Shown one piece after another: positions 13,118 through 37,371 of a stretch of 64,000 nucleotides of DNA. Numbering within the stretch: position 1 is the stretch's first letter; each line of letters begins with the position of its first letter. Source of the DNA: a virus. Taxonomy: Duplodnaviria > Heunggongvirae > Uroviricota > Caudoviricetes. The DNA lies in the IMG/VR virus record IMGVR_UViG_2695420859_000012; one strand, written 5' to 3'. Made by a program: the position numbers and the translations under genes. The notes under the pieces were generated by a model. It was not told the DNA's origin. It searched no databases and was given only the letters and a program-made list of their open reading frames with translations.

Positions 13118-13177
13118 AAGCCTGCTTCCGTATATATTTAATAAGTTACTTATTATTTATATATACAGAAGCAGGTC
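13118..13177. repeat. Long AT-centred palindromic element (copy 1 of 2), upstream of the small terminase gene
   Basis: CCTGCTTCCGTATATAT...ATATATACAGAAGCAGG inverted repeat; a near-identical copy lies at about 37312-37371. Confidence 0.6.
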
Positions 13178-13199
13178 TTTAAATAAGCTCCCAGACCGA

Positions 13200-13466
13200 T
13201 TACATCACCAGTAACTTCGCTTTGGCTCGACCTAAAGTGGTTAACCCAAGAGTTCGGCGGTGATAGCGATTGTCACTGCGTTGGCGCGTATGCCCTTTCT
13301 CCACAAGCCCCTTTTTTATCAGAGCGCGAATTGAGAACTGGATACTTTGCTTGGTTGTCTTGTACGGCAAAACTTCAAGCAATTCGTCCAGATCAAGTAG
13401 ATAACCTCGCTCATAACCGAGATTGAGCGTTTTGATGATGTCCTTTTGTTTATCGGTTAACGTCAT
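13200..13466 (-). CDS. Small winged-helix-like DNA-binding protein (hypothetical)
   Basis: 88-aa basic protein, last gene of the ParB/ABC/GNAT operon; HTH-like segment QSIQFSIRALIKKGLVEKG. Confidence 0.4.
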   Translation of the reverse strand: MTLTDKQKDIIKTLNLGYERGYLLDLDELLEVLPYKTTKQSIQFSIRALIKKGLVEKGHTRQRSDNRYHRRTLGLTTLGRAKAKLLVM

Positions 13467-13475
13467 GGCAAATCC

Positions 13476-14366
13476 TTATGCCGGTAAAGCAATTTCTAAC
13501 GGTTTATCCAAAGGTTGTTTGTCGAATGCCAGCAGTGGCAGCGTGTCAGGCAGTCGACGACCAAAGTCAGGGTTTCGATACACCCCATACAACGGAGACG
13601 TAAAGCTCAGGTTGTGAATGTCCTTGAGCAACTTCACAATGCTGGCCTCGTCCACCAGACTGTCGGCAATGTCCTGAATCGTCGTGCCACGATTCCGCCC
13701 AGCTTTTGCCAGGGAACTGTTCTTGTGGTAGTCCGCCACCAGATCACGCAGTGCACGGCGACGACGAGACTCGCTCATTGCGAACAACTCTTTGACGATC
13801 GCCTCGTTATCACCCGGGTCGGAACGGAAATGGCGCTGGAATACACGCAGTGCACTTTCATAGCTCTTCGGTCGCTCAGGGCGGATGAACTTAAACCCTG
13901 CTTTCATGGCGAAGGGATTGTATTTGCTCATCGAGGACTGGATCTCAATGATTGGCCGGTCATGCATCCTGCTAACCAGGTTAATCATTCGATAAGAGAC
14001 GCCTACGCCACGATACTGAGTATCCACAACTGAGCGACTGATCACCGCAAAGTTGTTATTCACGTACCGACCCCAGTACTGGTTAGCCACGGTGGTATTA
14101 GTGGTTGGTTTCAACTTAGGAAACATGCGGTGGCGAGGTGCCAACAGTAGTTTCGGGTAAGCCATAACCACGACGCCCACCAGACGGTCATCAAGTTCGC
14201 AGCGATAGTAAGTTGGCGCGAAAGGTTTGCCGTCTGTTTTGTAGTGAAGCGACTTAAGAGCGTGCCAGTCCTCTACAGTTCCCTTTGTAACAGTCATTCG
14301 CTCCAGAAAGTCCAGATGACGCGGAAACTCTTCAGGGCGGTAGCGTTTAATGATGATGTCCGTCAT
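13476..14366 (-). CDS. GNAT-like acetyltransferase-fold protein with C-terminal extension (hypothetical)
   Basis: Segment resembling the GNAT acetyl-CoA-binding motif (SVVDTQYRGVGVSYRMINLV); start overlaps the stop of the upstream ABC ATPase gene. Confidence 0.35.
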   Translation of the reverse strand: MTDIIIKRYRPEEFPRHLDFLERMTVTKGTVEDWHALKSLHYKTDGKPFAPTYYRCELDDRLVGVVVMAYPKLLLAPRHRMFPKLKPTTNTTVANQYWGRYVNNNFAVISRSVVDTQYRGVGVSYRMINLVSRMHDRPIIEIQSSMSKYNPFAMKAGFKFIRPERPKSYESALRVFQRHFRSDPGDNEAIVKELFAMSESRRRRALRDLVADYHKNSSLAKAGRNRGTTIQDIADSLVDEASIVKLLKDIHNLSFTSPLYGVYRNPDFGRRLPDTLPLLAFDKQPLDKPLEIALPA

Positions 14367-15028
14367 GAATGGACCTCATCGTGACTACCATTGCGATATT
14401 CCACCTTCACGCGTTCTTTGTAGTGCTTGGTGATCTGCATATCCGGGCGCAGCGCGTTCTTCAGGTCTTCGTGAGTCGTCGCCACCATTACCGTCGCACC
14501 AACCTTTCGAGCGGCACGCTGGAGGTTAGACGCCACAACCTGAGCGGTTACACGGTCGAGAACAGCGCCGAACTCGTCAGCAGCCCACACTTTAGCGCCT
14601 GACTCAATCAGTTTGGCAATCTTGAGACGATATTTCTGGCCGTCTGACATTTCAGAAGGCTTGCGAACAAACAGATATGCATCGTTCAGACCAGCCATAG
14701 ATAACAACCCAAGCGCATCACTGGTCGTTTTGCCCAACTGATCGATGACGTTAACCTCATTATCGAAGGTAAAATCATCGATGGAGGCTACAGACAGCCC
14801 TTCATCCTTCATCTGTCGTTGCAACTCGCGCAGCACAACGGATTTGCCGGAACCGGATTGGCCGGTGATGTACACCACATCGCCCTGCTTCACTTCCAGC
14901 TCCAGATTGTCGTAAAGCGTCCACTCTTTTTCGTCCAGGCCAAGCCCGAACGACTCAGCGATTTCCAACGTGCGCGTGGTTTTATTTACGCGTGTCTGAA
15001 ACGATACGTTGATGATGTATTTGCTCAT
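14363..15028 (-). CDS. ABC-type ATPase (stand-alone nucleotide-binding domain)
   Basis: Walker A (GQSGSGKS), ABC signature-like MSDGQKYRL, Walker B (VWAADEF). Confidence 0.6.
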   Translation of the reverse strand: MSKYIINVSFQTRVNKTTRTLEIAESFGLGLDEKEWTLYDNLELEVKQGDVVYITGQSGSGKSVVLRELQRQMKDEGLSVASIDDFTFDNEVNVIDQLGKTTSDALGLLSMAGLNDAYLFVRKPSEMSDGQKYRLKIAKLIESGAKVWAADEFGAVLDRVTAQVVASNLQRAARKVGATVMVATTHEDLKNALRPDMQITKHYKERVKVEYRNGSHDEVHS

Positions 15029-15693
15029 GCAGCCATCTCCCCGGAAGAGATCTTCTCCGCATATGCCACAAATGCGTCTACCCCGCTTTCTCCCGTCATT
15101 TCTTCCATGTGGGCAAGCAAATCACCAACAACAATGGCAGAGCCAGCAGGGAGCGTTTTAAAGCCCAATACGTCGACAACACGTACTTCTTCCGCTGCAA
15201 CTTCACGACTGATCTCGGTGTGTTCATCCTTCTGTCGTTTAGTTTCTTCGCCAAGATCGATAACTAGCGAGTCGGTGTCCATTTCTTCTGTCATACTGCC
15301 AACGAGAACATTCAACTCACGCTCTTCAAAGCCGAAAACCTCGATATCGTCCAGAACAAGCGACTCAAGCTCTTTCTGTAGCTTAATTGCATCGTAATCA
15401 ATGCTGGCAAGTCGGTTATCTTCAAGGCGCTTCGCACGAACCTCGTCATCACTGAGATCATCGCGAACAATAACCGGTACGCGCTCAAGTCCAGCAAAAA
15501 TTGCAGCCTCACGGCGGCCGTGGCCAGTAATAATTACGTCGTTCTTATCGACCGTAATTGGCTGGTCAAATCCGCGCTTTTTAATGGCTGCGGCTAGATC
15601 TCGGATCTGCTGTTCATCATGCTTTTTGGCATTCATCTCATAGGGAATAAGATCTGCCGGGTCGCGATATACGATTTCAAACTTTTTGGTCAT
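15025..15693 (-). CDS. ParB-like nuclease domain protein
   Basis: ParB N-terminal domain motif (ITGHGRREAA); start placed at the internal Met overlapping the stop of the upstream gene (track start 15726). Confidence 0.6.
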   Translation of the reverse strand: MTKKFEIVYRDPADLIPYEMNAKKHDEQQIRDLAAAIKKRGFDQPITVDKNDVIITGHGRREAAIFAGLERVPVIVRDDLSDDEVRAKRLEDNRLASIDYDAIKLQKELESLVLDDIEVFGFEERELNVLVGSMTEEMDTDSLVIDLGEETKRQKDEHTEISREVAAEEVRVVDVLGFKTLPAGSAIVVGDLLAHMEEMTGESGVDAFVAYAEKISSGEMAA

Positions 15694-16391
15694 TACATAC
15701 GCTCCTTGTAGTAGTCGACCAGCCACACCAGAGCCTCACCAGCGTTCTCCATTTCATTACCGGTGTTAATAGCCTGCTCTTTGATGATGTTTTTTATGGT
15801 TTCTGCAACACGATCTGACGCATCGAAAGTTACTTTGAAGCGCATGGTCTGATGTTCCGCACCCACACGTTCGGTTTTCTCTCGTTTGTCGGTATCGACA
15901 GGCTCATCACTACCACGAGACAACGCCTCCAGTGCTTCAAGGTCGATTGCCGCCTCTTTTGCTAAAACCATCGAGATTTCGTCGTCATACGGGGCGATTT
16001 CAGACAGTTGATAGTCAAGTTCTGACTGAATTTCTTCAATGAAGCGTTGCAATGCGATTTGGTCGTCTTCACCGTATCGCTCGTTGTCCACCAGTGACAT
16101 CTGTTTAGCTACGACATCGCTAATTTTGCCCACAGAAAGCACCGGAACCGTTGAAATTCCTTGCTCAATAGCAGCACGCCAGCGATGTTCGCCGCCGAGG
16201 ATTTCAAAAAATCCATCTTCAAGTTCACGAGCCAAAATTGGCTTAAAAAAGCCCAATTTTTCGATAGAACCTTTCAGTTTTTCAAAATTCTGCGCACCAA
16301 CCGAATTGGTGTTCCAGGTATTCGGGCGAAGGTTGGCAACATCAACCTGCAAAATCGTGATTTTTACATCCATTTTATTGCTACAATCCAC
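15693..16391 (-). CDS. ParB-like nuclease domain protein
   Basis: ParB N-terminal domain motif (ILGGEHRWRAA); first gene of the operon, divergent from the helicase gene. Confidence 0.6.
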   Translation of the reverse strand: MDCSNKMDVKITILQVDVANLRPNTWNTNSVGAQNFEKLKGSIEKLGFFKPILARELEDGFFEILGGEHRWRAAIEQGISTVPVLSVGKISDVVAKQMSLVDNERYGEDDQIALQRFIEEIQSELDYQLSEIAPYDDEISMVLAKEAAIDLEALEALSRGSDEPVDTDKREKTERVGAEHQTMRFKVTFDASDRVAETIKNIIKEQAINTGNEMENAGEALVWLVDYYKERM

Positions 16392-16455
16392 TAAGTAATC
16401 ACTTACTTATTATAATAGCCAAATAACATACAAAAGGCACTAAGGAAAGAGGTTT

Positions 16456-18015
16456 ATGACTGTTCGGATTGTATCTAACGCAGTAAATGCGCTTATTTCT
16501 GGCGCAGATGACAAGGTAAAGCAACTGGTGCAGCAAATGTTGAGCTACGAAGTCGAGACTGGCGACTGGAAGGGCACAAGCACGATGTTCAACTGGAGTA
16601 AAAACTCGTTCCCTGCTGGCTTTGCCAAGCCTGTAGCGGCGAACTTGAACAAGGCGGGCATCAAATGTGTTCATATCCGCAAAGACAAAGCCCCGGCGCT
16701 TGGTAAACCAAATCCGGCGGTTAACCCATTCCCATACAATCCTGATTATGCGTATCAGGATCAGACTGTGGAAACACTGGTTCGAGAGGGAATGATGATT
16801 GCGCAGATCGCTACTGGTGGCGGGAAATCTAACGTTGCCTGCAAAGCAGCTGCACGTATCGGTCGAATGACATTATTTTTAACAACCCGCTCTGTTCTGA
16901 TGTTTCAAATGGCCGAAAACTTCCAGAGATCCATCGACTACCGCGCCGAAAATGGCGAACCGTGGTTAAAAGACCAAAAGGTTGGAGTCATTGGCTCGGG
17001 TGAGTTCCAGGTATCACGACATATCAACGTCGCTACAGTTCAAACTCTTGCAAGTTTCCTCGAAGAACCACCACGCGATGCAACACCAGATAAGAAAAGC
17101 TACCACCTCAAACGTCGGGAGTTGGTGAAACGCTTCCTTTCAAGTGTCTCTCTTCTTATTCTGGAAGAGGCGCATGAGTCTTCAGGCTCAAATTTCTATG
17201 ACATCGCCAGATTATGTGTGAACGCAGACTATCGTCTGGCGCTTACAGCCACGCCGTTCATGAAGGATTCGACGGAAGCCAACATGCGCCTGATGGCGGT
17301 GGCCGGGCGAATTGAAATTAAAGTCACAGAAAAGTACCTGATTGATCGAGGCATTCTGGCAAAGCCGTACTTCCTTTATCATAAAGTTGCCTACAAGCCA
17401 GACGAGGCCAGAATCAAGGCCGAACTTGCCAACAAACACCTCAATTTTAGAGTTGGTATGAGCACCGCCTACCAAAAGGCTTATCAGTTGGGGATCGTGT
17501 ATAATTTGGGACGTAACGAGGCCATTGTTCGCGAAGCATTGCTCTATAAGCAACATTCTCTCAATTGTATGACTCTGGTTCGTCTTAAACGCCACGGGCA
17601 AATCCTGATGGAAATGATGAAAGAGTCCGGCCTTAGAGTTGACTTCATCTATGGGGAATCTAACCAGGCGACAAGGCAAGCAAAGCTGAACAGTTTAGCG
17701 TCTGGAGAAATAGATGTTTTAATAGGCTCGACTATTCTGGATGTCGGTGTTGATGTGCCAAGCGTTGGTGCGGTCATTCTTGCTGGTGGTGGGAAAGCAG
17801 AAGTTGAAATGAGGCAGCGTGTCGGTCGTGGCTTACGAGCCAAAAAAAATCAGGCAAACGTGTGTTTTATCACTGATTTCATTGACATTAGCAACAAATA
17901 CCTGTTGTCTCACTCTTATGAGCGAAAACACATCATCGACACCACACCTGGCTTTGCAGAAGGTGTATTGCCTATTGATGGAGCATTCGATTTTGGAGTT
18001 CTGAAACGAGATTAG
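16456..18015 (+). CDS. Superfamily 2 (DEAD/DEAH-box type) helicase
   Basis: Walker A (ATGGGKS), DEAH-like motif II (LILEEAHES), motif III (ALTATP), motif VI (RQRVGRGLR); AGGAAAGAGG RBS before the ATG. Confidence 0.75.
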   Translation: MTVRIVSNAVNALISGADDKVKQLVQQMLSYEVETGDWKGTSTMFNWSKNSFPAGFAKPVAANLNKAGIKCVHIRKDKAPALGKPNPAVNPFPYNPDYAYQDQTVETLVREGMMIAQIATGGGKSNVACKAAARIGRMTLFLTTRSVLMFQMAENFQRSIDYRAENGEPWLKDQKVGVIGSGEFQVSRHINVATVQTLASFLEEPPRDATPDKKSYHLKRRELVKRFLSSVSLLILEEAHESSGSNFYDIARLCVNADYRLALTATPFMKDSTEANMRLMAVAGRIEIKVTEKYLIDRGILAKPYFLYHKVAYKPDEARIKAELANKHLNFRVGMSTAYQKAYQLGIVYNLGRNEAIVREALLYKQHSLNCMTLVRLKRHGQILMEMMKESGLRVDFIYGESNQATRQAKLNSLASGEIDVLIGSTILDVGVDVPSVGAVILAGGGKAEVEMRQRVGRGLRAKKNQANVCFITDFIDISNKYLLSHSYERKHIIDTTPGFAEGVLPIDGAFDFGVLKRD

Positions 18016-18017
18016 TT

Positions 18018-18296
18018 ATGAGCGAAAAGAAAACAACTTATTGTCAGGTAGCATTGTCTGATAAGGCCAATGACAAACTTGGAAAGTTTCAAGTGAAACT
18101 AAAAGAAAAAAATATCAAAATGTCTAAGGCTGAAGTCATAAATACCATTCTGGAACAATTGACAATGGCCGACTTTGACAAGGTTATATCTTCTGTCGGG
18201 GCTTCCGCTAAGACTCGTGAGAAAATCATGCGTATCTATGAGAACTCTAATATGACAAAGGAAGATCTCGAAACGCTATTAAGCAGATTAAAATAA
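18018..18296 (+). CDS. Hypothetical protein (92 aa)
   Basis: ORF starting 3 nt after the helicase stop, same strand. Confidence 0.45.
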   Translation: MSEKKTTYCQVALSDKANDKLGKFQVKLKEKNIKMSKAEVINTILEQLTMADFDKVISSVGASAKTREKIMRIYENSNMTKEDLETLLSRLK

Positions 18297-18322
18297 TCAC
18301 GCTATCAATTAGGGAGACAAAG

Positions 18323-18787
18323 ATGAAGTCTCCCATACTGTTCACTTTCTGTTCTAAAACTATCATGAAATACTCGCTTCTCCCTCTACTAACGTTACCA
18401 GTGTTGATGCTTACCGCGTGCCAATCACGCCCAATATCAATCCATGACGCCAAACCAGCACCGCAGGCCAAAGTGTTCAAGTATCAAAGCGCAGCGCCAG
18501 CTACGTTGGTGGTAATGAGAGACACAGGTTTTGTAGGAGCTGGATGTGATGCTTCCATTTTCATCAACGGCGAAACTGTCGCAAAACTGGCTACAGGCGA
18601 AAAAGCGACTTTCCATTTAAATGCCGGAGAATTAATTATGGGTGCATCTCTTGAAGGTGCAGGTTTATGTGCTCTAAACCCCGCTCGTCAAGAGCGAGAA
18701 ACGACTCTGAAGAATGGAGACACAAAAGCGTTCAGGGTGTTCACCAGCAATTCTGGTGACATCGACATTCTGCCAACAACTCTGTGA
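18323..18787 (+). CDS. Putative lipoprotein
   Basis: N-terminal hydrophobic segment ending in lipobox-like LTAC (LLPLLTLPVLMLTACQS); GGGAG RBS before the ATG. Confidence 0.5.
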   Translation: MKSPILFTFCSKTIMKYSLLPLLTLPVLMLTACQSRPISIHDAKPAPQAKVFKYQSAAPATLVVMRDTGFVGAGCDASIFINGETVAKLATGEKATFHLNAGELIMGASLEGAGLCALNPARQERETTLKNGDTKAFRVFTSNSGDIDILPTTL

Positions 18788-18791
18788 TGAC

Positions 18792-19316
18792 ATGACAACC
18801 AAAGATATTACCTACGGTATCCAAGCTGAACTCTGGCCGCGAGATTACACTAACGTTGAAAAACTACTGATGTTCTGGCGCAGAGAACAAATTCCTGTAA
18901 GGGTCACTCTCGAAGATGGCCAGGCGTTTTGCATGTACGTTTATGGCCTCATGCCATCTCGTAACAAAGTTGACCTTTGCCCAGCCCCTTTTGACAAAGA
19001 AAATCGTATAAGGCTCCCACTTGAACGCATTAGTACAATTGAATCAGGTGTGGTTGACAGTATCGCTCACGATTTCAAAGGTCGACTAACAGTTCACCCT
19101 GATTATGTCGATAATCGGCCATCACGCCGCGATTTTTTTGCAATTTGCAACCAAGCCTACAAAGCAAACAAATCTATAAGGGTGTACATGGCGGATGGCC
19201 GTGAAATTGAGGGGGTGTCAGCAGGCGCAGATGCTTGTCAGGTTACACTACGTGTCGAGAACGGTAGAAAAATAGTTGTTTTGTTCGATTGGGTTGAACG
19301 AATTTTGCCTTTTTGA
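18792..19316 (+). CDS. Hypothetical protein (175 aa)
   Basis: ORF from the internal Met (MTTKDITY) immediately after the lipoprotein stop; the track ORF begins at 18714 and overlaps. Confidence 0.4.
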   Translation: MTTKDITYGIQAELWPRDYTNVEKLLMFWRREQIPVRVTLEDGQAFCMYVYGLMPSRNKVDLCPAPFDKENRIRLPLERISTIESGVVDSIAHDFKGRLTVHPDYVDNRPSRRDFFAICNQAYKANKSIRVYMADGREIEGVSAGADACQVTLRVENGRKIVVLFDWVERILPF

Positions 19317-19319
19317 GTT

Positions 19320-22167: not shown

Positions 22168-22517
22168 GATTAATTCCTTATCGTAAATAACAAATTGTTT
22201 TCTTGTTGGTGTTAATTATCGTTGTACGAATAAGGCGTCAAAGTGGAAAGTTGCGGTAGCCGGACGGGAACAGGTGGGTTTGTCGGTTGCCTGGAGGTAA
22301 GAGGTTGGTGTTATTAGCCTGAGGGAAACAGGATGGTCATTTAAGACCACCAATGCTGGTGGCCTTAATAATTATCGCCCGATTACGCTAAGGATCTTTT
22401 CCTCAACTGATTTGTTGTTGCGACTAAACTGCCTTGCGTATCTGATGACAGAAGAGGCGTTTTGCTTTCTGACCATCTCGGCTCTTTCCTTCAGGCGTTT
22501 CTTGAAATCGCCCATAT

Positions 22518-25019: not shown

Positions 25020-25620
25020 CTATTTCTGTTGGTGAATTGGGTGTGTTGTTCTCTCTGTCGGTGTATGTGGTTTCGTTCGTTTTGCGGTGGTTCTTCTATG
25101 GGGTGTTCTCGTCGTTTTGGTGATTGTTCTTCTCCGTGTATGGAGTAATGGCAGGTGGGCGATTCCTTTCGTTGTTGTGTTTGAGTTGTTTGTCTGGAGT
25201 GTGTGAAAGGCTTTTGCAGTTATTCGTGTATTGGGTAATGGCATTTCCCGTGATTGTTGTGTTTCGTGTCTTTTGGGATTGAGAGAAACCTTGCGGTTAC
25301 AGGCTTCGTTGGGGTTTCAGTGATTCTGGTGTTCTTCGCTGTTTGGGGAATGGCGTGTCGTGGGTATCGCGCGTATGAATGTTTTCGGATTGCCTGTGAA
25401 AGTTAGGTTGGTTGTCCGGTAGCCTGGGGAGAAGAGGTGGGTCTTTTCGGTAGCCTGGGGAGAAGAGGTGGGTCTTTTCGGTAGCCTGCCATAAAGAGGT
25501 TGGTTGTTTTTGGAAATGGCATTTGTGTTATTTAGTTGTTTTGTTATGCCTGAAAATAAGTTGTTTATATGGTTGTGTAACGCAACGGGAGCGATTTTGA
25601 GCGTGTGTTTTTGTTGGTAG
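25020..25620. repeat. G+T-skewed non-coding repeat region with a 32-bp tandem direct repeat (about 25418-25500)
   Basis: Forward strand strongly G/T-rich for about 600 bp; recurring GG(A/G)(G/A)(T/A)AATGGC units at about 25142, 25232, 25345 and 25511; GGTAGCCTGGGGAGAAGAGGTGGGTCTTTTC repeated about 2.3 times in tandem. Only low-complexity ORFs are present. Confidence 0.6.
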
Positions 25621-30308: not shown

Positions 30309-30317
30309 TAAAAAGGT

Positions 30318-31691: not shown

Positions 31692-31752
31692 GTGTTTTTC
31701 TCTTATCGTTTAGTAACTACATTCTTACATAAATTAAGTAAGCATTTACCTA

Positions 31753-33438
31753 TCATTTAACGCGTTTGAAAACGTATACGCTGACTGTGATCCCTGTGTC
31801 TTCAAACTCGTTGGTAAACGACTTCCCTCTGGCATAAACGTAATTATCCATCGTCATCCAGTCCAGTATTGGCGCAGTGCCCGGCAATACTGCTACAAGA
31901 CGCCCGCCGACTTTCAGATGCCCCAGCGCAGCCAGCGTGTGCTCTCTATGACGACCAAGCGAGTACGGCGGGTTCATAACGATTTTGTCGAACTGATAAC
32001 CTGCGTTGTCCTCAGACCACTTTATGAAGTCGCAGCAAATCGTGTTCGTATACCCTTTTCCACGCAGGATATCAGCGAAGAGAGGTGCGATTTCTATGCA
32101 GGTAACATCTTCCAGATCGGCGTCAATATAGGCCAGAAGATCCCCACGTCCGGCTTGAGGCTCCAACAGCTTCTCACCAGGCTTCAATTCAGTGGCTCTT
32201 GCAACGTACTCAGCAATCAAGCGTGGGGTAGGGTAGAACTGGTGTGATTTTGTATCCGGTATTAAACCGGTAGCCACAATCGTATTTAGCGTATGGCCGA
32301 TGTCATACGGGAACTGCCAGTGCTTTTTCTCCTGCACGCCGCCAATGAAGCTCAGTGTGCGCTCAAGCTCTTCCACCTGCGACTTCTGGAGAGCTGAATC
32401 AGAGAAGTACCATACACCTTTGTCTTTGCTCAATCGCCCGTCACGAAGCGCAGTGCGAACCGGCACGGAGATCGTCTTCTGGATTAAACCGAACTGCTTT
32501 GGTGCCCGTGTTTTTGGCGCAGTTCGGCATGGCGCGGGGATTGCAGCAGGCATACTGTAAGCCAGCACCTCATTCAACTTCCAGGCCACGTCAGGATGTA
32601 TTTCAAAGTGAACGTTGCCGTTCTTGAACATCTTCACGCGCATCAGATTTCCATCGACGTTCATCCAGTCACCGGTCTGGCAGTCGTTTGCCCGATACGC
32701 AGCTGATAGCACCTCAGCAGTGCGGTTGATGGTAATAAATTCTTTGTGCGCGAAGAAATGAAGCAAGACACGCAGATCGTCGATGTAGTCCTCTTTGCGA
32801 TAGTTCACGCTAACGCTGTCCCGCCAGAAATCAGAAATGCAGTCAGCGATTATCAGCCGCTCGCTGAAACCATTTGTCTTATTTGTCTTGTGCACAGGAC
32901 TCAGCGCCTTAAACAAGCCATACACGCGCTCAGAGAGATATTTGTGCCTGTCATTCAGCAAATTAAGCATCGTGGGTATGACCGTTTCTGCTTTGAACTC
33001 CGGTACACCAACGAACTCTTTAACCTTCATCTGGTAGCCGGTTCTGTCAGTTTTGATGACTTCCTGTTTGCCCTCTATAAACTGCTCGCGCCACTCATCT
33101 CGACGGGAAGCTGGCATGATCAGCAAAACGTTAGTCATGTCCGTGACCTTCCTCCAGTACTCGGCCCAAATATTCTGTTTCACCCATTCCAGATCGACTT
33201 TATCCAACCAACCTCGATTTAAACGCGAGCGATCTTCATCTGGTCGATGGTTTAGTTTCAGCAGGCGATTAATCATGTTGTGGCGTTCGTCGCCATAAAC
33301 GAAGTTGTGAACCTGATACATGAAGGCGATCTCTTTCTCGCACTCGGCCACAATTTCGTGGATAACGTTCATTTCCTGACGATAATCGATAGCAGTGTTT
33401 GAGCTGGCATCGTCGATGATGGAAAGGGCTGTATTCAT
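31753..33438 (-). CDS. DNA N6-adenine methyltransferase with large N-terminal domain of unknown function
   Basis: C-terminal about 190 aa carry motif I-like LEPQAGRGDL and motif IV (IVMNPPYS); the N-terminal about 370 aa are unassigned. Conserved upstream element directly 5'. Confidence 0.6.
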   Translation of the reverse strand: MNTALSIIDDASSNTAIDYRQEMNVIHEIVAECEKEIAFMYQVHNFVYGDERHNMINRLLKLNHRPDEDRSRLNRGWLDKVDLEWVKQNIWAEYWRKVTDMTNVLLIMPASRRDEWREQFIEGKQEVIKTDRTGYQMKVKEFVGVPEFKAETVIPTMLNLLNDRHKYLSERVYGLFKALSPVHKTNKTNGFSERLIIADCISDFWRDSVSVNYRKEDYIDDLRVLLHFFAHKEFITINRTAEVLSAAYRANDCQTGDWMNVDGNLMRVKMFKNGNVHFEIHPDVAWKLNEVLAYSMPAAIPAPCRTAPKTRAPKQFGLIQKTISVPVRTALRDGRLSKDKGVWYFSDSALQKSQVEELERTLSFIGGVQEKKHWQFPYDIGHTLNTIVATGLIPDTKSHQFYPTPRLIAEYVARATELKPGEKLLEPQAGRGDLLAYIDADLEDVTCIEIAPLFADILRGKGYTNTICCDFIKWSEDNAGYQFDKIVMNPPYSLGRHREHTLAALGHLKVGGRLVAVLPGTAPILDWMTMDNYVYARGKSFTNEFEDTGITVSVYVFKRVK

Positions 33439-33579
33439 AATTACACCATTAAATAATTTGTTTTCTGATTGGTGTAATTATCGCAAACTTGAAAAGGCAT
33501 AAAAGCTGCATTCATAGGCGTTACAGCAGATTTAAGGCGTAAAAATGGGGGCTGTCGCCCCCTGTCGACTGGTGCTGTA

Positions 33580-34146
33580 TTAGAGTGCGTATTGCGTTTT
33601 GTGCGGCTGCTTATTCAAGTCATGGCGATGCGTGAGCTCCCGCATCATGTCTTCAAGGCGACTCTTTGTGTCGTCGAGCTGGTCGGCCATTGCACCTAAA
33701 AGCTGGCGAACGGCCATCGGACCGTCGCTGTTTAGTGATGGCATTTTAGAACCTGCTTTAGAAGACATAAGGTTGATTGCAGACATCAACATCGTTAGAG
33801 AGGATTTAAGCCCGGCAATTTCACGATCTTTGCTGGCAATAATCGTCTCACTTTTGTTACCGTCATCAGTTTCTTGAGTCTCGCTCACCATATCCAAAGT
33901 CGCTTGCAACTTATCAGCTCTCTCTTTTTCAGCAAGGTAATGAACACCGAAATGGTGTGCCAAAGCTACAATCTGAGTTGGCTCTTCAAAGGTGGAATTA
34001 AAATTAAGTATTGTAAACAGTCTCTCAAATATGGAAACGTCTTCTATTCCTCGAAGAATGGCTAACATTTTGACCAGTTCATTAGCATCCATTTCTTCGA
34101 ATAAGGCGTTTTGTTCATCAGCTATCGCTTTGCATTTCTTGCACAT
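33580..34146 (-). CDS. Hypothetical protein (188 aa)
   Basis: ORF with AGGA RBS and the conserved upstream element. Confidence 0.5.
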   Translation of the reverse strand: MCKKCKAIADEQNALFEEMDANELVKMLAILRGIEDVSIFERLFTILNFNSTFEEPTQIVALAHHFGVHYLAEKERADKLQATLDMVSETQETDDGNKSETIIASKDREIAGLKSSLTMLMSAINLMSSKAGSKMPSLNSDGPMAVRQLLGAMADQLDDTKSRLEDMMRELTHRHDLNKQPHKTQYAL

Positions 34147-34285
34147 GTGTTTTTCCTAATGCTTAAACAAGTTGTTTTCTTATTGTCTTTATTGTGATGT
34201 GGCATAAAAGGGGAGCAAGCTAAACGTAAAGGTGCAAACTCTCTATTTCGGTCAACGAAACACAAGGGCCATTTGGCCCTTGTCA

Positions 34286-34444
34286 TTAACACTTTGCTTT
34301 ACGAACTAACGGATAAGCGAAGTAGATCGCCAAACCAATGAGGACGCCATCAGAAATGACAGACATCATCTTTCCCGTAAAATCCACCAACACCGCCATC
34401 ACCAGAAGAGCAATGACGATCACAAGCCGGAATCTCTCAAGCAT
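34286..34444 (-). CDS. Small membrane protein (52 aa, hypothetical; below ORF-track threshold)
   Basis: My own translation MLERFRLVIVIALLVMAVLVDFTGKMMSVISDGVLIGLAIYFAYPLVRKAKC, two hydrophobic segments; its ATG overlaps the TAA stop of the upstream gene. Confidence 0.3.
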   Translation of the reverse strand: MLERFRLVIVIALLVMAVLVDFTGKMMSVISDGVLIGLAIYFAYPLVRKAKC

Positions 34445-34869
34445 TAGAGATAAGCATCCAGTGACAACTGAAGCGCCTGGGCGATCTTTTTCAGTGCCTG
34501 CTCTTCTTGTTCACCAATGCCGTCCTGATCGGCAATATCAAGGCACAGACACAGAACATCGACCGCCTCTGGAGTACCCGCAATATCAGACAGCTCACGA
34601 ATAGCCTGTGCATTAGCAGAACGAGGGGACGCTTCGTAACGAGCACGGATATTGGCGCTCATTTGGGCAATTTCACCAGCAAACGGAGAAAACGCAGGCA
34701 GAGCTGCAATTGTCTTCTCAAGAATGGCAATTTCTTTTGCGTCACATGTGCCGTCGGCATAGGAGATCATGTACGCGCCCCACACGGTGGCCTCAACCGC
34801 ATCACGGTTCTCCATTTTTTTGACTTCGATAACAGCTTTACGAGTTTTCTTTTTGAAGAAACCTAACAT
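34444..34869 (-). CDS. TerB-like domain protein (hypothetical)
   Basis: About 140 aa; loose resemblance to TerB/DjlA-N type domains (ISYADGTCDAKEIAILEKTIA...QEEQALKKIAQAL). Conserved upstream element present. Confidence 0.35.
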   Translation of the reverse strand: MLGFFKKKTRKAVIEVKKMENRDAVEATVWGAYMISYADGTCDAKEIAILEKTIAALPAFSPFAGEIAQMSANIRARYEASPRSANAQAIRELSDIAGTPEAVDVLCLCLDIADQDGIGEQEEQALKKIAQALQLSLDAYL

Positions 34870-34962
34870 GTGCTTTCCTTTTATTATTTGTCAAAACAAG
34901 TTGTTTTCTAATTACATAAATTGCTTACGCAGAGATGGTCAATGCATATGCACTAACAGCCG

Positions 34963-35151
34963 TCAGAAATAACCAAGTACCGAACCAACTGGAAAAACAA
35001 AAATCCCAACTACACGAGCCAAGGTCATGCCAGCCTGAAACTGGAGATCGCCAGAGCAAACAAGTTTTATAATGTTCGATACCCAACCGGCGGCCATAAG
35101 GGCAAGAATTGCCAGCCAAATTTTTCCAAAGTGATTTGAAAACCAGTTCAT
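34963..35151 (-). CDS. Small membrane protein (62 aa, two predicted TM segments)
   Basis: Hydrophobic segments IWLAILALMAAGWV and VVGIFVFPVGSVLGYF; ATG overlaps the stop of the upstream ORF. Confidence 0.4.
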   Translation of the reverse strand: MNWFSNHFGKIWLAILALMAAGWVSNIIKLVCSGDLQFQAGMTLARVVGIFVFPVGSVLGYF

Positions 35152-35399
35152 ACAACCGCCTTAGTCACAGCATGATCCTGAGTAACTGGATGAACTTGAG
35201 GTATCGCATCCACCGCCATCCCATCCAGAGTGACAGGACGCTCCACTGGAGTGGTGGTAATTGTCGTCGACGAAGGTGTGGTGATGGATGAATCCGGCAT
35301 CAAAAGGCTCTGACCGGCTGGAACGGCTACCGTCGCCAGTGAAACTATAATGAGAACGTAGGCCATTGGTTTCAGCCTCTTTCTTTGAAAATTTTCCAT
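35148..35399 (-). CDS. Small secreted/membrane-anchored Thr/Pro-rich protein (hypothetical)
   Basis: Hydrophobic N-terminal segment (MAYVLIIVSLATVAVPA); start/stop overlap with the downstream gene. It overlaps the 35161-35655 ORF in another frame, so only one of the two may be real. Confidence 0.3.
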   Translation of the reverse strand: MENFQRKRLKPMAYVLIIVSLATVAVPAGQSLLMPDSSITTPSSTTITTTPVERPVTLDGMAVDAIPQVHPVTQDHAVTKAVV

Positions 35400-35655
35400 T
35401 CGAACTGTCCTTGTTGTTTTTCTCCTTCACTAAAGGCCGTGCATTTTTCGCTTCGCGTGAAGAACCAGAGGCAACAATCGCCCCCACGTTCGCAACAACT
35501 GACGCTTGATTATCTAAACGTTCATTCAGCAACCGAACGGTAGTCTCTAGTTCATCAAGGCGTGACATAACACGACCGCTAAATAATTCGGCCAAAATTT
35601 GACGTAAAGAACGAGGACGTTTAGTTACAGAAGTGAAATAGGTTTGACGTGCCAT
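35161..35655 (-). CDS. Hypothetical protein (N-terminal about 90 aa look protein-like; C-terminal part may be out-of-frame read-through)
   Basis: The N-terminal part is helical and charged; the C-terminal Ser/Gly/Cys/His-rich tail looks like non-coding translation. Confidence 0.3.
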   Translation of the reverse strand: MARQTYFTSVTKRPRSLRQILAELFSGRVMSRLDELETTVRLLNERLDNQASVVANVGAIVASGSSREAKNARPLVKEKNNKDSSNGKFSKKEAETNGLRSHYSFTGDGSRSSRSEPFDAGFIHHHTFVDDNYHHSSGASCHSGWDGGGCDTSSSSSYSGSCCD

Positions 35656-35803
35656 GTGGACTCCATCCAGTGTCAGAAAGAGTTGCGGCTGGCGATTGCC
35701 AGCCGCCTTTCTCGTTCCATCCTGGAACTGTGTCTTACCGACACATTGTCATCCTGACGCCGATAAGATACATGATTTAAAATGATAGGTAAACACTTAC
35801 TTA

Positions 35804-36394
35804 CTATTTATTATAAACAAAACCAATATCTTTCTTGTGAGGCATATCTGCTGCTGAAAAAGCTGCGATCTTCGCGAGTCGATCACATATTTCATTTTCA
35901 CGATGCCCGGCGTGACCTTTAACCCACTTCCAGCGAACATTATGTCGACTTGCGGCCTCATCCAGACGCTTCCACAGATCAACATTCTTTACCGGTTTTT
36001 TGTCAGAAGTCATCCATCCATTGCGTTTCCACCATTTCATCCACTGTGTCATGCCGTTTTTCAGATACTGGCTATCAGAGTGCAAAATAACGTTGCATGG
36101 ATATTTCAAACGCTCCAGCCCGATAAGTGCCCCCATCATCTCCATGCGGTTATTGGTGGTGCTATGAAAACCATCTGAGAACTCGCGTTCCTCACCACGA
36201 TACTGGAGAACGATACCGTAACCGCCCGGGCCACCCGGATTTTTAAGGCAAGAGCCATCACTAAAGATTTTCACGGTTTTAAGCTGGGGATTGAACTCTA
36301 CGACAGGCGTTGTGGGATTGGTGCGGGGGGAATTTTTGTTTTTGGCTTTTTTGCGAGTTTTTGCTTGCGATCGGGCTGGTGTCTTCGTCGTCAT
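35804..36394 (-). CDS. rnhA: Ribonuclease HI with basic N-terminal extension
   Basis: RNase H domain near-collinear with E. coli RnhA ([27 protein letters not shown]...[16 protein letters not shown]...HSDSQY...[18 protein letters not shown]). Start placed at the internal Met ([10 protein letters not shown]); the track ORF starts at 36478. Confidence 0.85.
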
Positions 36395-36479
36395 ATAAAC
36401 TCCTGAATCAAGCGCCGCGCCGATTTTTCCTCGCGCGTGCGCACACGCGTGCGTGTTAATAATTATTAAAATAAACAAA

Positions 36480-36960
36480 TTACTTCCCAGAACAGGTTTT
36501 TATAAACCTGAACTGAACGAACGAAGTGAGTGAAATTCACCTCGAACGAAGTGAGAGGTTGTCTTTTCAGGTAATACTCTCCCAGGGAGGTGAGTATAAA
36601 AATCTCTCACCAACCTGGTCGTTTCATAACCTGAAAAGTTATGGTCTAAGTCTACTGCCAGCTTAGACTTGGGAAGTTATGGATGACAGCACCCCAGAAC
36701 CGAGATCTTCCCACACTTTATGAAGGGGAGTACTGGATTCAACCTCTCGAAACACCCCAGACTCGACAATCATAAAGTGACCCTTGTCTCTGCTCACTTT
36801 GGTTCCCCCTTCCCCGACACCTAAACGGCACCAGTTCTACGCTGGTAGTGAGCTTTTTTAAACCTGACGCCAGTGACGCTTACCCCCACCCATCAGGTCG
36901 AGTCTCCAGTCTACGACTGGAAACTATCAGATCTTAGCACTTACAATTCACTTTATGAAT
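36480..36960. other. ORF-free region (about 480 bp) with multiple hairpins and short direct repeats
   Basis: No ORF of 60 aa or more on either strand; GAACGAAGTGAG repeated twice; hairpins such as CAGGTTTTTATAAACCTG and CATAACCTGAAAAGTTATGG. Confidence 0.4.
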
Positions 36961-36976
36961 AGTTTGTACTTATCTA

Positions 36977-37231
36977 TCATTGTGATTGATTATTTTCTCT
37001 ACCATGTAGTTGAACATTCAAGGCAAACACCTCATTGATCAACTCACCTAAAAGCTGTTCAACAAGTTCGCGATGCTCGCCAAGATGCAAGCACTTAATT
37101 GCCCATTCGTACAAGTTGAAAGCCTGCTCACGATCTTTCATCATTTCACGAGCCTGGGCCAGAAAATCGCTCTCTACGAGCGCAACGACATTAGTCGGGT
37201 ATGACATGTTGGTTTCCTTAAAGTGGTTCAT
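36977..37231 (-). CDS. Hypothetical protein (84 aa)
   Basis: ORF downstream of the second long palindromic element. Confidence 0.45.
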   Translation of the reverse strand: MNHFKETNMSYPTNVVALVESDFLAQAREMMKDREQAFNLYEWAIKCLHLGEHRELVEQLLGELINEVFALNVQLHGRENNQSQ

Positions 37232-37311
37232 AAAATCGATTTTAAAGCGTCTGGGAAGGGGTTCTAGTGGATTCTGTTGTGATGTTCAGGTCTGGAGTCT
37301 CTGATACAAAA

Positions 37312-37371
37312 CAGCCTGCTTCCGTATATTAATAATTAATATGTAGTTATTTATATATACAGAAGCAGGCT
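37312..37371. repeat. Long AT-centred palindromic element (copy 2 of 2)
   Basis: AGCCTGCTTCCGTATATTAATAATTAATATGTAGTTATTTATATATACAGAAGCAGGCT, near-identical arms to the element at 13118-13177. Confidence 0.6.

What the first reader, a model, noticed from the sequence alone, without database searches (positions are those of the whole stretch)
13118..37371. Two copies of a ~60-bp AT-centred palindrome (13118-13177 and 37312-37371)
Near-identical arms (CCTGCTTCCGTATAT...ATATACAGAAGCAGG) surround an AT-rich centre. Copy 1 sits between the ParB/ABC/GNAT operon and the small terminase gene, the classical position of a pac or cos site, and is itself nested in an outer inverted repeat (GGTCTGGG...CCCAGACC). 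Copy 2 sits downstream of the Dam-like methyltransferase gene. Candidate functions are a packaging signal, late operator, or bidirectional terminator.
Basis: seen in the sequence. Interest (0 to 1): 0.5.

Follow-up and report, generated by a model that had tools for sequence, protein, structure and literature searches.

The report
Three-copy boundary hairpin of SSU5-like phage-plasmids
The two palindromes are real and belong to a three-copy element found throughout the SSU5/pHCM2/pMT1 family of phage-plasmids, where it most likely acts as a transcription stop or insulator hairpin ahead of each major block of lytic genes, not as the DNA-packaging site.

Summary
Both 55-bp AT-centred palindromes exist as described (13121-13175 and 37315-37369) and are far beyond chance. 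The window is an SSU5-like phage-plasmid, about 99% identical to Escherichia phage CMS-2020a/PhiR41_1/Cyrano. Complete relatives carry exactly three copies at three fixed loci. Locus A lies upstream of the TerS-like gene. Locus B lies downstream of Dam. Locus C, outside the window, lies between the plasmid-partition/cargo region and the helicase-primase block. About 800 plasmids hold the element, always at these loci. All copies share one orientation logic: each precedes a block of co-directional lytic genes, and the promoters of B and C lie downstream of it. At locus C the variable cargo ends exactly at the palindrome edge. Distant clades keep an inverted repeat with compensated arm changes, or replace it with another hairpin plus U tract. 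Best reading, confidence about 0.4: a sense-strand RNA hairpin that terminates or insulates transcription, and possibly serves as an RNase III site, at module boundaries. This is convincing at C, fair at B and weak at A. A cos/pac role is not supported but not excluded. The unusually strong conservation of arm sequence, especially the right arm, leaves a sequence-specific protein site as a serious rival.

The parts
13121..13175 (-). Locus A copy of the 55-bp AT-centred palindrome. Arms are at 13121-13136 and 13160-13175. The sense strand is the minus strand.
   Evidence: Homologous to PhiR41_1 45582-45636. Present at this locus in 41 IMG/VR stretches.
37315..37369 (-). Locus B copy of the palindrome. 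Arms are at 37315-37330 and 37354-37369. In the sense direction it is followed by CUGUUUUGUAU.
   Evidence: Homologous to PhiR41_1 13435-13487. 29 IMG/VR stretches.
13099..13106 (.). Outer motif GGTCTGGG. It is the sense-downstream CCCAGACC of locus A as read on the plus strand.
   Evidence: The TCTGG/CCAGA motif flanks all three loci in all lineages. 5 of 10 genomic CCCAGAC sites cluster at loci A and B.
13190..13197 (.). Outer motif CCCAGACC, the inverted partner of 13099-13106.
   Evidence: (pairs in the MFE fold).
37289..37297 (.). Outer motif GGTCTGGAG next to copy 2. It is the first of several CCAGA-type motifs between the palindrome and the next gene.
37377..37389 (.). Outer motif CAGACGCCAGAAC on the Dam side of copy 2.
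37239..37270 (-). Putative promoter of the block downstream of locus B: CTAGAA, 17 nt, TAAAAT, preceded by CCAGACGCT. It lies downstream of the palindrome.
   Evidence: Read. The block CCAGACGCT.TA.AAT is conserved across 25 distinct sequences. The same CCAG(A/T)CGCT plus -10 arrangement occurs at locus C. This is an inference, not a mapped start site.
13022..13043 (-). Small GC hairpin AGAGCGC-loop-GCGCTCT followed by GUGUGUUUU, about 20 nt before the TerS-like start codon. It is a leader terminator or attenuator of the packaging operon.
   Evidence: the only terminator-like hit in the region. Conserved in all locus A sequences.
12371..13003 (-). TerS-like DNA-binding protein gene, the first gene of the block that follows locus A.
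   Evidence: (phrog_867). It overlaps TerL (11115-12371), which matches Terminase_6N.
37393..37986 (-). Dam-type adenine methyltransferase gene, the last gene before locus B.
   Evidence: PF05869, E=2.9e-38.
36977..37207 (-). Small conserved gene (phrog_5343), the first gene after locus B. The true start is probably the ATG at 37207, not 37231.
   Evidence: the profile covers residues 9-84. PhiR41_1 annotation gives 76 aa..

Best explanation
The palindrome is a boundary element for transcription. When RNA polymerase reads it in the direction of the genes (the minus strand of the window), the RNA folds into a long hairpin. The base of the stem is 9-16 bp and GC-rich (CCUGCUUCYG / CRGAAGCAGG) and the top is AU-rich. 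At loci C and B a U-rich tail follows, and the hairpin stops incoming transcription. This shields the next block of lytic genes from read-through. Locus C precedes helicase, primase and replication genes. Locus B precedes the RNase H and accessory block. Locus A precedes terminase, head, tail and lysis genes. These blocks must stay silent in the plasmid prophage or be timed separately. At locus A the tail is poor, so the hairpin is at best a leaky stop. There it more likely acts as an RNA processing or stabilising hairpin, since a stem of about 24 bp is a natural RNase III substrate. It sits in series with a small canonical terminator just before the TerS-like gene. The element belongs to the downstream module: cargo upstream of it is exchanged, and the junction falls at its edge. 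Shown here: the three-locus distribution, the orientation logic, the conservation, the compensated arm changes and the junction position. Inferred: termination, processing and the insulator role. Left unexplained: why the arm sequence, above all the right arm GGAAGCAGG, is held almost constant across genera and among the three copies.
For: (1) Four complete relatives each carry three copies at the same three loci: PhiR41_1, pJN2-26, pG6809-1 and CP027615. All 94 IMG/VR stretches and 8 of the 9 genome-collection stretches map to those loci; the ninth, L114, could not be placed. (2) Every copy precedes a block of co-directional genes. The start codon lies 107-118 nt downstream in the main clade. 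(3) The candidate promoter of block C (TTCCAA/TTTCAA, 17 nt, TATGAT/TATCAT) is conserved in all clades and lies downstream of the palindrome. Blocks B and C share CCAG(A/T)CGCT next to the -10. (4) At locus C at least 5 unrelated left flanks abut the same palindrome and right flank. (5) U-rich tails follow in the sense direction only. Locus C has UCUUUUAAAAG, UCUUUUUCUAUG or UUUUUUUAUACC. Locus B has CUGUUUUGUAU or CUUUUUAAGACG. Tail scores average 2.75 at C (4.95 in pJN2-26), 1.9 at B and 1.5 at A, against about 1.6 on the antisense side. (6) The structure is kept through sequence change. Outer arms read CCTGC/GCAGG, CCTGG/CCAGG, CCGCG/CGCGG, CCTTG/CAAGG and CCTGT/ACAGG in different clades or loci. 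RNAalifold keeps a 9-bp stem in which 2 pairs change on both sides. (7) Where the palindrome has decayed, another hairpin takes its place. CP027615 loci B and C have a separate GC hairpin plus U tail. Morganella locus C pairs the motif with a downstream complement followed by UUCUUUC. L152 has an unrelated perfect hairpin at locus A. (8) The variable arm position 9 is U.G, C-G or U-A in the sense RNA in 62 of 69 distinct sequences. In the antisense RNA only 35 of 69 pair. (9) The spacing between arms ranges from 23 to about 95 nt among clades. A stem tolerates this; a dimeric operator does not. (10) In E. coli LF82 a MinD/ParA-type gene of Cyrano is expressed in lysogeny. I take this to be the partition gene that lies co-directionally upstream of locus C in relatives, directly so in Raoultella. 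A stop is needed exactly there.
Against: By the d'Aubenton-Carafa criterion none of the main-clade copies scores as a strong intrinsic terminator, and locus A has no U tract at all. The arms are almost invariant across genera although the flanks are only 75-85% identical, and the three copies in a genome share clade-specific arm sequences. A plain terminator would drift more. The right arm is better kept than the left: CP027615 loci B and C keep only the right half, and the left arms of L151 and Raoultella locus A are degenerate. In PhiR41_1 and pG6809-1 the gene upstream of locus C points away, so no obvious transcript enters the hairpin. Sense and antisense folding energies show no consistent bias within the main clade. 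The outer TCTGG/CCAGA repeats are conserved as sequence, not as pairs. No transcript ends have been mapped for any member of the family.
Confidence: 0.4

Rival explanations
1. The element is a sequence-specific protein-binding site used three times per genome. It could be a global operator or activator site for the three lytic blocks, as KorB operators are on RK2. It could also be a set of dispersed centromere-like sites, as SopB sites are on the plasmid prophage N15. The protein would recognise the arm motif GGAAGCAGG, and perhaps the flanking TCTGG/CCAGA motifs. The AT-rich centre would supply bendability.
For: The arms are nearly invariant while the flanks diverge. The three copies in a genome share clade-specific arms: GGAGCCAGG at all three loci of CP027615 against GGAAGCAGG in the main clade. 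The right half-site persists without its partner. Extra conserved TCTGG/CCAGA motifs sit at helical spacings between the palindrome and the promoters. Locus C lies just downstream of the ParA operon. Candidate DNA-binding proteins are encoded nearby: two ParB_N proteins, the TerS-like protein, and a Flag1_repress regulator in relatives.
Against: Half-site spacing varies from 23 to about 95 bp between clades, and by 2 bp in either direction within the main clade. Four different compensated outer-arm versions exist. The element sits 60-100 bp upstream of the promoters rather than over them. Known ParB, KorB and SopB sites are short contiguous palindromes. pMT1 uses a P1-type ParAB yet keeps locus A. 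U tracts occur on the sense side only. No protein-DNA data exist.
Confidence: 0.25
2. The element is a packaging recognition site, pac or cos-like. The TerS-like protein would bind the two arms across a bent AT-rich centre, as lambda gpNu1 binds R3 and R2 across the IHF site in cosB. Headful packaging could then start at any of the three copies.
For: Locus A is in the classical position upstream of the TerS-like and TerL genes. The linear GenBank record of phage SSU5 begins and ends inside palindrome A. TerL matches Terminase_6N/Terminase_3 and the portal is SPP1-like, which fits headful packaging, and headful packaging tolerates several initiation sites (the packaging-mode link is from general knowledge). 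Arms of 16 bp with an AT-rich spacer resemble lambda cosB R3-I1-R2 (from memory, not tested).
Against: There are three copies per genome, two of them far from the packaging genes and fixed upstream of unrelated blocks. The centre has no IHF consensus (read). The break in the SSU5 record is off-centre and could be an assembly break at a hairpin. Many draft contigs also end next to these repeats. The Cyrano start probably just follows SSU5, which is my inference, and the p4727 record starts at an ATG. The defective prophage pMT1 keeps the site. The palindrome is replaced by an unrelated hairpin in clade L152 although TerL is 82% identical.
Confidence: 0.1
3. The element acts at the DNA level through its structure. 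The AT-centred palindromes would extrude as cruciforms, or fold on the lagging strand. They would then serve as lytic replication origins, priming sites or recombination hot spots. For example, the phage's own SbcCD-like nuclease could cut them to start recombination-dependent replication, as in T4-type replication.
For: An AT-rich centre flanked by GC arms is the architecture that extrudes most readily. The centre expands to about 95 bp of nearly pure AT in Xenorhabdus and Moellerella relatives. The phage encodes a T4-like set: SbcCD-like exonuclease, RecA-like protein, gp32-like protein, RNase H, ligase, helicase, primase and Pol III alpha. Some copies have flipped centres, a signature of hairpin-mediated template switching. 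Module junctions fall at the palindrome edge.
Against: Nothing direct supports it. GC skew is monotonic and uninformative. Copies that have lost one arm are retained. The sense-strand U tracts and the fixed position upstream of promoters are not explained.
Confidence: 0.1

Closest known systems
Intrinsic (Rho-independent) terminators used as insulators at the edges of mobile-element operons, for example the Tn916 insulator terminator (PMC11658703, listed; abstract only read)
   Same: A stem-loop in the sense RNA with a GC-rich stem base, and a U-rich tail at loci B and C. It sits between a unit expressed in one state and a unit that must stay silent, and it travels with the protected module.
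   Different: The stem is unusually long (about 24 bp, 55 nt) with an AU-rich upper part. The tails are mediocre, and absent at locus A. The sequence is kept nearly identical in three copies and across genera, which ordinary terminators are not.
PeSL (promoter-early stem-loop) cassettes of T4-type phages (Arbiol et al. 2010, Genome Biol Evol; recalled from memory, not read here)
   Same: Repeated, sequence-conserved intergenic cassettes that combine a stem-loop with a nearby promoter. They sit at junctions where gene modules are swapped.
   Different: PeSLs are numerous and flank small hyperplastic ORFs. Here there are exactly three copies, at fixed positions ahead of the major lytic blocks. 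The promoters downstream differ between loci.
RNase III processing sites of phage T7 early and late mRNAs
   Same: Paralogous hairpins of about 50-60 nt in intergenic positions of long polycistronic phage transcripts. The stem spans two helical turns.
   Different: T7 sites have a characteristic internal loop and are proven cleavage sites. No cleavage data exist here, and no Rfam family matches.
Dispersed centromere and operator sites of plasmids: N15 SopB sites, and RK2 KorB OB sites (recalled from memory)
   Same: A few copies of one palindromic sequence are scattered over a plasmid or prophage genome, near promoters of phage or backbone operons. One copy is close to the partition genes.
   Different: Those sites are short contiguous palindromes (13-16 bp) bound by a known ParB-type protein. 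Here 16-bp arms are split by 23-95 bp of AT-rich DNA, and a half-site survives alone in one clade.
Lambda cosB (R3-I1-R2) and SPP1 pac
   Same: Locus A lies immediately upstream of the small-terminase-like gene. It has two inverted arms of about 16 bp around an AT-rich centre.
   Different: There are three copies per genome, no IHF consensus, and no cosN-like nicking site identified. Termini are unmapped.

Membership tests
Intrinsic terminator | Stable GC-containing stem-loop in the transcribed strand | tested here: met
   MFE of the extended regions is -50.6 kcal/mol at locus A and -39.5 kcal/mol at locus B on the minus strand, with z-scores -11.9 and -6.5. A 9-bp outer stem is kept across clades.
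Intrinsic terminator | U tract immediately 3' of the stem | tested here: inconclusive
   Mean tail scores are C 2.75, B 1.9 and A 1.5, against 4.1 for a clear terminator in the same window. pJN2-26 locus C scores 4.95. The scan tool did not call them because the loop exceeds 8 nt.
Intrinsic terminator | Position at the 3' end of a transcription unit, in the sense orientation | tested here: met
   Locus A starts 24 nt after the stop of the 88-aa ORF and locus B 23 nt after the Dam stop. Locus C directly follows the parAB-like genes in Raoultella and CP027615. In PhiR41_1 and pG6809-1 the gene upstream of locus C is divergent.
Intrinsic terminator | Measured termination of transcription | not testable with these tools
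   No Term-seq or reporter data were found.
cos / pac packaging site | Unique site next to the terminase genes | tested here: not met
   There are three copies per genome, and two are 23-36 kb from the terminase genes.
cos / pac packaging site | Virion DNA ends or a coverage step map to the site | not testable with these tools
   The only hint is that the SSU5 linear record is opened inside palindrome A. The LF82 virome coverage of Cyrano was at background level.
Protelomerase target (telRL of N15-type linear prophages) | Single near-perfect palindrome, a linear plasmid with hairpin ends, and a protelomerase gene | tested here: not met
   There are three copies with imperfect centres. The plasmid records are circular. 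No protelomerase is annotated in four complete relatives; no dedicated HMM search was run.
ParB/KorB/SopB-type centromere or operator | Short contiguous palindrome bound by an HTH ParB, and co-variation with the partition protein | tested here: inconclusive
   The architecture differs: the arms are split and the spacing varies from 23 to 95 bp. Locus C is near parA. pMT1, which has P1-type ParAB, still carries locus A. Binding is not testable.
REP / MITE-like mobile palindromic repeat | Many copies at variable, lineage-specific positions | tested here: not met
   114 of the 115 instances examined could be placed, all at the same three orthologous loci; one, L114, could not be placed. There are no other copies in four complete genomes.
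Known RNA family (Rfam) | Match to a curated covariance model | tested here: not met
   The whole window gives no hit at gathering threshold.
PeSL-like regulatory cassette | Repeated conserved stem-loop with an adjacent promoter at module junctions | tested here: inconclusive
   The stem-loop is repeated three times, with putative promoters 60-70 nt downstream at loci B and C and a module junction at the edge of locus C. The promoters are inferred from sequence only, and the copy number is far lower than for PeSLs.

The most novel reading that the evidence does not exclude
The three palindromes could be sequence-specific cis sites for a genome-wide DNA transaction of the phage-plasmid rather than RNA punctuation. 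They might be multiple entry points for headful packaging. They might be cruciform-prone lytic origins or break sites that feed the phage's T4-like recombination-dependent replication. Or they might be N15-style dispersed centromere/silencing sites recognised through the conserved GGAAGCAGG arm. Any of these would be the first such site defined for the SSU5/pHCM2/pMT1 family.
Probability: 0.2. Interest if true: 0.7.

Novelty: new variant of a known kind. Interest (0 to 1): 0.4.

Why it matters
SSU5-like phage-plasmids are among the commonest large plasmids of clinical Enterobacterales. They include pHCM2 of S. Typhi, pMT1 of Y. pestis, pLF82/Cyrano, and Klebsiella and E. coli elements that carry CTX-M or KPC. 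About 800 PLSDB records carry this element. Almost nothing is known about how their lytic programme is wired or kept silent. A three-copy, family-wide conserved element that marks the start of the replication, packaging/structural and accessory blocks gives a concrete handle on three questions. First, how the prophage insulates its lytic operons from plasmid and cargo transcription. Second, where cargo modules are exchanged, since the junction at locus C falls at its edge. Third, why assemblies of these plasmids break at these points. If it turns out to be a protein site, an origin or a pac site, it would define the first cis-acting site of the family beyond the RepA iterons.

Tried and rejected
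(1) Chance or a single duplicated hairpin. Rejected: the element sits at conserved orthologous loci in about 800 plasmids and 94 viral contigs.

(2) Mobile REP/MITE-like repeat. Rejected: the element is never found outside loci A, B and C.

(3) Hairpin telomere / protelomerase site. I considered this because the SSU5 record ends inside the palindrome. Rejected: the plasmids are circular, there are three copies, and the centres are imperfect.

(4) T4-type late promoter. TATAAATA is on the sense strand of the left half in 58 of 69 distinct copies. Not pursued: copies with flipped or altered centres exist, it is absent from that position in other clades, and no gp55-like factor is known here.

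(5) Sigma-70 promoter inside the right half. No consistent -10 (A2/T6) or -35 is found across clades, and the conserved promoter-like blocks of B and C lie further downstream.

(6) LexA box. CTGTATAT...ATATACAG resembles SOS half-sites, but the spacing is wrong and position 9 is C in many copies.

(7) loxP-like site. CTTC(C)GTATA resembles the loxP arm, but the 23-bp spacer is incompatible with a tyrosine-recombinase core site, and synteny shows no inversions or deletions between copies.

(8) IHF site in the centre. No WATCAA-N4-TTR consensus is present.

(9) GC skew as an origin marker. It is monotonic and therefore uninformative.

(10) Sense versus antisense folding energy. There is no consistent bias in the main clade.

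(11) Viral-contig scans for clade-specific arms. One search found nothing because I mis-specified the right arm. Searches returned only unrelated sequences.

(12) Literature. No paper held in the library mentions these palindromes, SSU5 termini or a transcript map. The SSU5 genome announcement and a 2026 preprint could not be opened.

(13) pMT1 as a natural experiment. It is uninformative, because the regions that would hold B and C are deleted or replaced.

Full report
**Observation.**
Copy 1 spans 13121-13175 and copy 2 spans 37315-37369. Each is 55 bp, with 16-bp arms (CCTGCTTCCGTATAT[A/T] and TATATACAGAAGCAGG) around a 23-bp centre made only of A and T.

- The arm pattern with up to three mismatches occurs five times in the window against 0.33 expected, and no shuffle reaches five.
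- Four of those hits are the four arms. The fifth, at 58027, has no partner arm and lies inside a coding region, so it is chance.
- The repeat finder reports the two copies as one family at 82% identity (D12).
- Both copies fold far better than shuffled sequence, with z-scores from -6.5 to -11.9.
- The outer inverted repeat around copy 1 is real: GGTCTGGG at 13099-13106 and CCCAGACC at 13190-13197. Copy 2 has a weaker version.

**Context.**
The window is an SSU5-like phage-plasmid. It is about 99% identical to Escherichia phage CMS-2020a, PhiR41_1 and Cyrano (pLF82), 88% to Salmonella phage SSU5 and about 80% to Klebsiella phage-plasmids. Nearly all genes in this part of the window are on the minus strand, so the minus strand is the sense strand.

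- Copy 1 begins 24 nt after the stop of an operon. That operon encodes two ParB_N proteins, an ABC ATPase, a 296-aa ATPase and an 88-aa protein.
- Copy 1 ends 118 nt before the start of the TerS-like DNA-binding gene, which overlaps TerL.
- Copy 2 begins 23 nt after the stop of a Dam methyltransferase gene (PF05869). It ends 107 nt before the probable start (37207) of a small conserved gene.

**A third copy and the family-wide picture.**
The complete genome of the near-identical PhiR41_1 (107,998 bp, circular) has three copies.

- Locus B is at 13435-13487 and corresponds to window copy 2.
- Locus A is at 45582-45636 and corresponds to window copy 1.
- Locus C is at 75115-75169, outside the window. 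It lies between the ParA/cargo region and a block that begins with a conserved 246-aa gene, a DnaB-like helicase and a primase.

A pattern scan of IMG/VR found 94 stretches, and every one maps to A, B or C. The same holds for the Klebsiella phage pJN2-26, the Enterobacter plasmid pG6809-1 and a divergent K. pneumoniae plasmid, CP027615. The genome-collection scan found 9 stretches, from Kluyvera, Buttiauxella, Y. pestis and one MAG. Eight map to A, B or C, and one (L114) could not be placed. A BLAST of locus A against PLSDB finds about 800 plasmids, from Klebsiella, Escherichia, Enterobacter, Yersinia pMT1, Salmonella pHCM2, Citrobacter and Cronobacter. pMT1 keeps only locus A, because the regions that would hold B and C have been deleted or replaced.

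The three loci divide the genome into three parts:
- B to A holds accessory and regulatory genes plus the ParB_N/ABC operon.
- A to C holds packaging, head, tail, lysis and partition genes.
- C to B holds replication, recombination and nucleotide-metabolism genes.

**Anatomy shared by the three loci (sense orientation).**
Upstream lies a TCTGGG-type motif, then about 12-20 nt, then the palindrome. After another 14-28 nt comes CCCAGAC(C), followed by further CCAGA-type motifs.

Sequence blocks that look like promoters lie downstream of the palindrome and are conserved.
- At locus C the block is TTCCAA (or TTTCAA), 17 nt, TATGAT (or TATCAT). It is kept even in the most distant clades.
- At locus B the block is CTAGAA, 17 nt, TAAAAT or TAGAAT.
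- Both B and C have CCAG(A/T)CGCT just upstream of the -10.
- These promoters are inferred from sequence only.

Locus A has in addition a small canonical hairpin followed by GUGUGUUUU, about 20 nt before the TerS-like start codon.

At locus C the left flank differs completely between genomes. There are at least five unrelated contexts, some with a divergent gene and some with a co-directional one. The palindrome and the right flank stay the same, and the breakpoint falls at the palindrome edge. The element therefore travels with the downstream module.

**Evolution of the palindrome.**
Within the main clade, arm positions 1-15 are almost invariant, although the flanks are only 75-85% identical. 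The main variable site is position 9. In the sense RNA it reads U.G (34 distinct sequences), C-G (21), U-A (7) or C.A (7). It is therefore pairable in 62 of 69 sequences in the sense RNA, against 35 of 69 in the antisense RNA. These counts are not phylogenetically independent.

Some changes are compensated on both arms:
- CCTGCTTTCG/CGAAAGCAGG at pJN2-26 locus B.
- CCTGTTTC.../...GAAACAGG at pJN2-26 locus C, which is followed by seven U.

In clades whose TerS-like protein is only 50-63% identical, locus A still carries an AT-centred inverted repeat, but with different outer arms:
- CCTGG/CCAGG in L123.
- CCGCG/CGCGG in L154 and, less perfectly, in Moellerella.
- CCTTG/CAAGG in Xenorhabdus.

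The centre is 23 nt in the main clade and grows to about 95 nt in Xenorhabdus and Moellerella. RNAalifold on 14 representatives keeps a 9-bp outer stem, and two of its pairs change on both sides.

Three observations cut the other way.
- First, the right arm is the best conserved part. Its core is GGRR-NNN-GG preceded by TATAT, for example GGAAGCAGG, GGAGCCAGG, GGAGCAAGG and GGAACGCGG.
- Second, in CP027615 all three loci share the clade-specific right arm GGAGCCAGG, but loci B and C have lost the left arm. Each is followed instead by a separate GC hairpin with a U tail.
- Third, in Morganella locus C the motif pairs with a complement placed downstream and is followed by UUCUUUC. In clade L152 an unrelated perfect hairpin occupies locus A.

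**Is it a terminator?**
U-rich tails occur on the sense side only.
- Locus C: UCUUUUAAAAG, UCUUUUUCUAUG or UUUUUUUAUACC.
- Locus B: CUGUUUUGUAU or CUUUUUAAGACG.
- Locus A: none in the main clade, but CUCUCUUUUU in the L123 and CP027615 clades.

Mean tail scores of the d'Aubenton-Carafa type are 2.75 at C, 1.9 at B and 1.5 at A, against about 1.6 on the antisense side. A clear terminator elsewhere in the window scores 4.1, and pJN2-26 locus C scores 4.95. The printed d values carry a sign error in the energy term. Recomputed by hand they are still negative for the main-clade copies and about zero for pJN2-26 locus C. So locus C looks like a real terminator, if not a strong one. Locus B is borderline, and locus A does not look like one.

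A biological argument fits. A MinD/ParA-type gene of Cyrano is among the genes expressed in LF82 lysogens. I take this to be the partition ATPase that lies upstream of locus C. In several clades the parAB-like genes read straight towards locus C, directly so in Raoultella. The helicase-primase block behind locus C must stay silent in the prophage.

**Best explanation (confidence about 0.4).**
The element is a sense-strand RNA hairpin that punctuates transcription at the 5' boundary of the three lytic gene blocks. It acts as an insulating terminator at C and probably at B. At A it is a leaky stop or a processing and stabilising hairpin, working in series with the small leader terminator. A stem of about 24 bp would be an RNase III substrate if transcribed; this follows from established knowledge of RNase III and was not tested. 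The element is inherited with the downstream module and marks the point where upstream cargo is exchanged. This resembles the PeSL cassettes of T4-type phages, a comparison I make from memory.
- Shown: the distribution, the orientation logic, the conservation, the compensated changes, the replacement by other hairpins, and the junction position.
- Inferred: termination, processing and insulation.

**What this does not explain, and the rivals.**
The explanation does not account for the near-invariance of the arm sequence, the shared clade-specific arms at all three loci, or the survival of the right half alone. These fit a sequence-specific factor better, which gives the first rival: a protein-binding site such as a global operator or a dispersed centromere-like site (0.25). 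Against that rival are the variable spacing of the arms (23-95 bp), the four compensated arm versions, the position 60-100 bp upstream of the promoters, and the sense-only U tracts. Gene conversion among the three copies could also explain their concerted evolution.

A pac or cos role (0.1) has two points in its favour. Locus A is in the classical position, and the SSU5 GenBank record is opened inside palindrome A. The record ends ...CCTGCTTCCGTATATATAAATACTAAGTGACTTATTA and starts AATATATACGGAAGCAGG.... Against it are the three copies, and the likelihood that the break is an assembly artefact at a hairpin. Many draft contigs end next to these repeats. The Cyrano record starts at the same point, probably by alignment to SSU5, which is my inference because the paper read does not say. 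The p4727 record simply starts at an ATG.

A DNA-structural role (0.1), as a cruciform-prone lytic origin or a break site for recombination-dependent replication, is suggested by three things: the AT-centred architecture, the T4-like replication and recombination gene set with SbcCD-like genes, and the flipped centres in some copies. It has no direct support, and GC skew is uninformative.

**Comparison with known systems and novelty.**
No Rfam family matches. No paper in the searchable library mentions these palindromes or maps the transcripts or termini of any SSU5-like element. The kind of element, an intergenic boundary hairpin or terminator cassette, is known. Several features appear to be undescribed: exactly three copies at fixed loci, a long AT-centred stem, near-identical sequence across genera in a clinically widespread phage-plasmid family, and a fit to the canonical terminator that is only partial. 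I rate it a new variant of a known kind, of moderate interest (0.4).

Noticed in passing
window 53215-53320 and 54431-54975, flanking ORF 53221-54435 (+): At least 12 iterons (consensus ATGTATGCTGTCAGCGGT) lie on both sides of a 404-aa ORF. This is a P1/IncFIB-like RepA replicon with iteron arrays on both sides. Relatives annotate the gene as RepA or replication initiation protein.
   Followed up: partly
window 22188, 23854, 24339, 26869, 26917, 30491, 33451, 34165, 34894, 45113 and 13039-13066: A 13-bp palindrome AAACAAnTTGTTT (often followed by TCT) is dispersed mainly over the region of small genes, and occurs twice between palindrome A and the TerS-like gene. It looks like the operator of a dimeric regulator.
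   Followed up: no
window 4097, 9592, 11100, 16391, 23456, 31735, 35780, 37998, 47548, 52233, 55740; also PhiR41_1 about 75250 (L099 about 25250): A second family of imperfect palindromes of about 20-24 bp (ATAGGTAAGTA-N3-TACTTACCTAT and variants) sits in short gaps between co-directional genes, often 10-45 nt before the start codon. Relatives encode a Flag1_repress (FljA-like) regulator nearby, and FljA is an mRNA-binding translational repressor. These could therefore be RNA operators or processing hairpins. The centre of the 55-bp palindrome (TAAGTnACTTA) resembles a shortened version.
   Followed up: partly
window 25417-25509 and 22254-22342: There are two sets of three tandem 31-nt repeats (CGGTAGCCTGGGGAGAAGAGGTGGGTCTTTT). 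The two copies at 25417-25478 are identical. Function unknown.
   Followed up: no
window 39096-39138: A perfect 20-bp hairpin has an A run on one side and a T run on the other (AAAAAAAAGCCTACTTTAAA / TTTAAAGTAGGCTTTTGTTT). It is a textbook bidirectional intrinsic terminator and was used here as a reference.
   Followed up: partly
window 36479-36976 (minus strand): About 500 nt after the first gene downstream of locus B are non-coding. The stretch contains several (G/T)TCTGGGG motifs and GC-rich inverted repeats. It could be a structured RNA or a regulatory region. There is no Rfam hit.
   Followed up: no
NC_018843.1 / JQ965645.1 (L002, L003), record ends: The linear GenBank record of the type phage SSU5 is opened inside palindrome A, with 37 nt of it at the 3' end and 18 nt at the 5' end. 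The Cyrano record OV696614 starts at the same point.
   Followed up: partly
window 13147-37340 compared with PhiR41_1 13461-45609: The distance between loci A and B is 24.2 kb in the window but 32.1 kb in PhiR41_1. An accessory segment of about 8 kb (the ea22/eaA-like genes in PhiR41_1) is therefore absent from the window.
   Followed up: no
window 36977-37231 (minus strand): The mechanical ORF starts at 37231. However, the PHROG profile, the PhiR41_1 annotation and a good Shine-Dalgarno sequence all point to the ATG at 37207 (76 aa).
   Followed up: yes
CP027615.1 26850-26930 and 76150-76280 (L148, L149): In this divergent Klebsiella clade loci B and C keep only the right half of the element. 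Each has gained a separate GC hairpin with a U tail between a CCCAGA and a TCTGG motif.
   Followed up: partly
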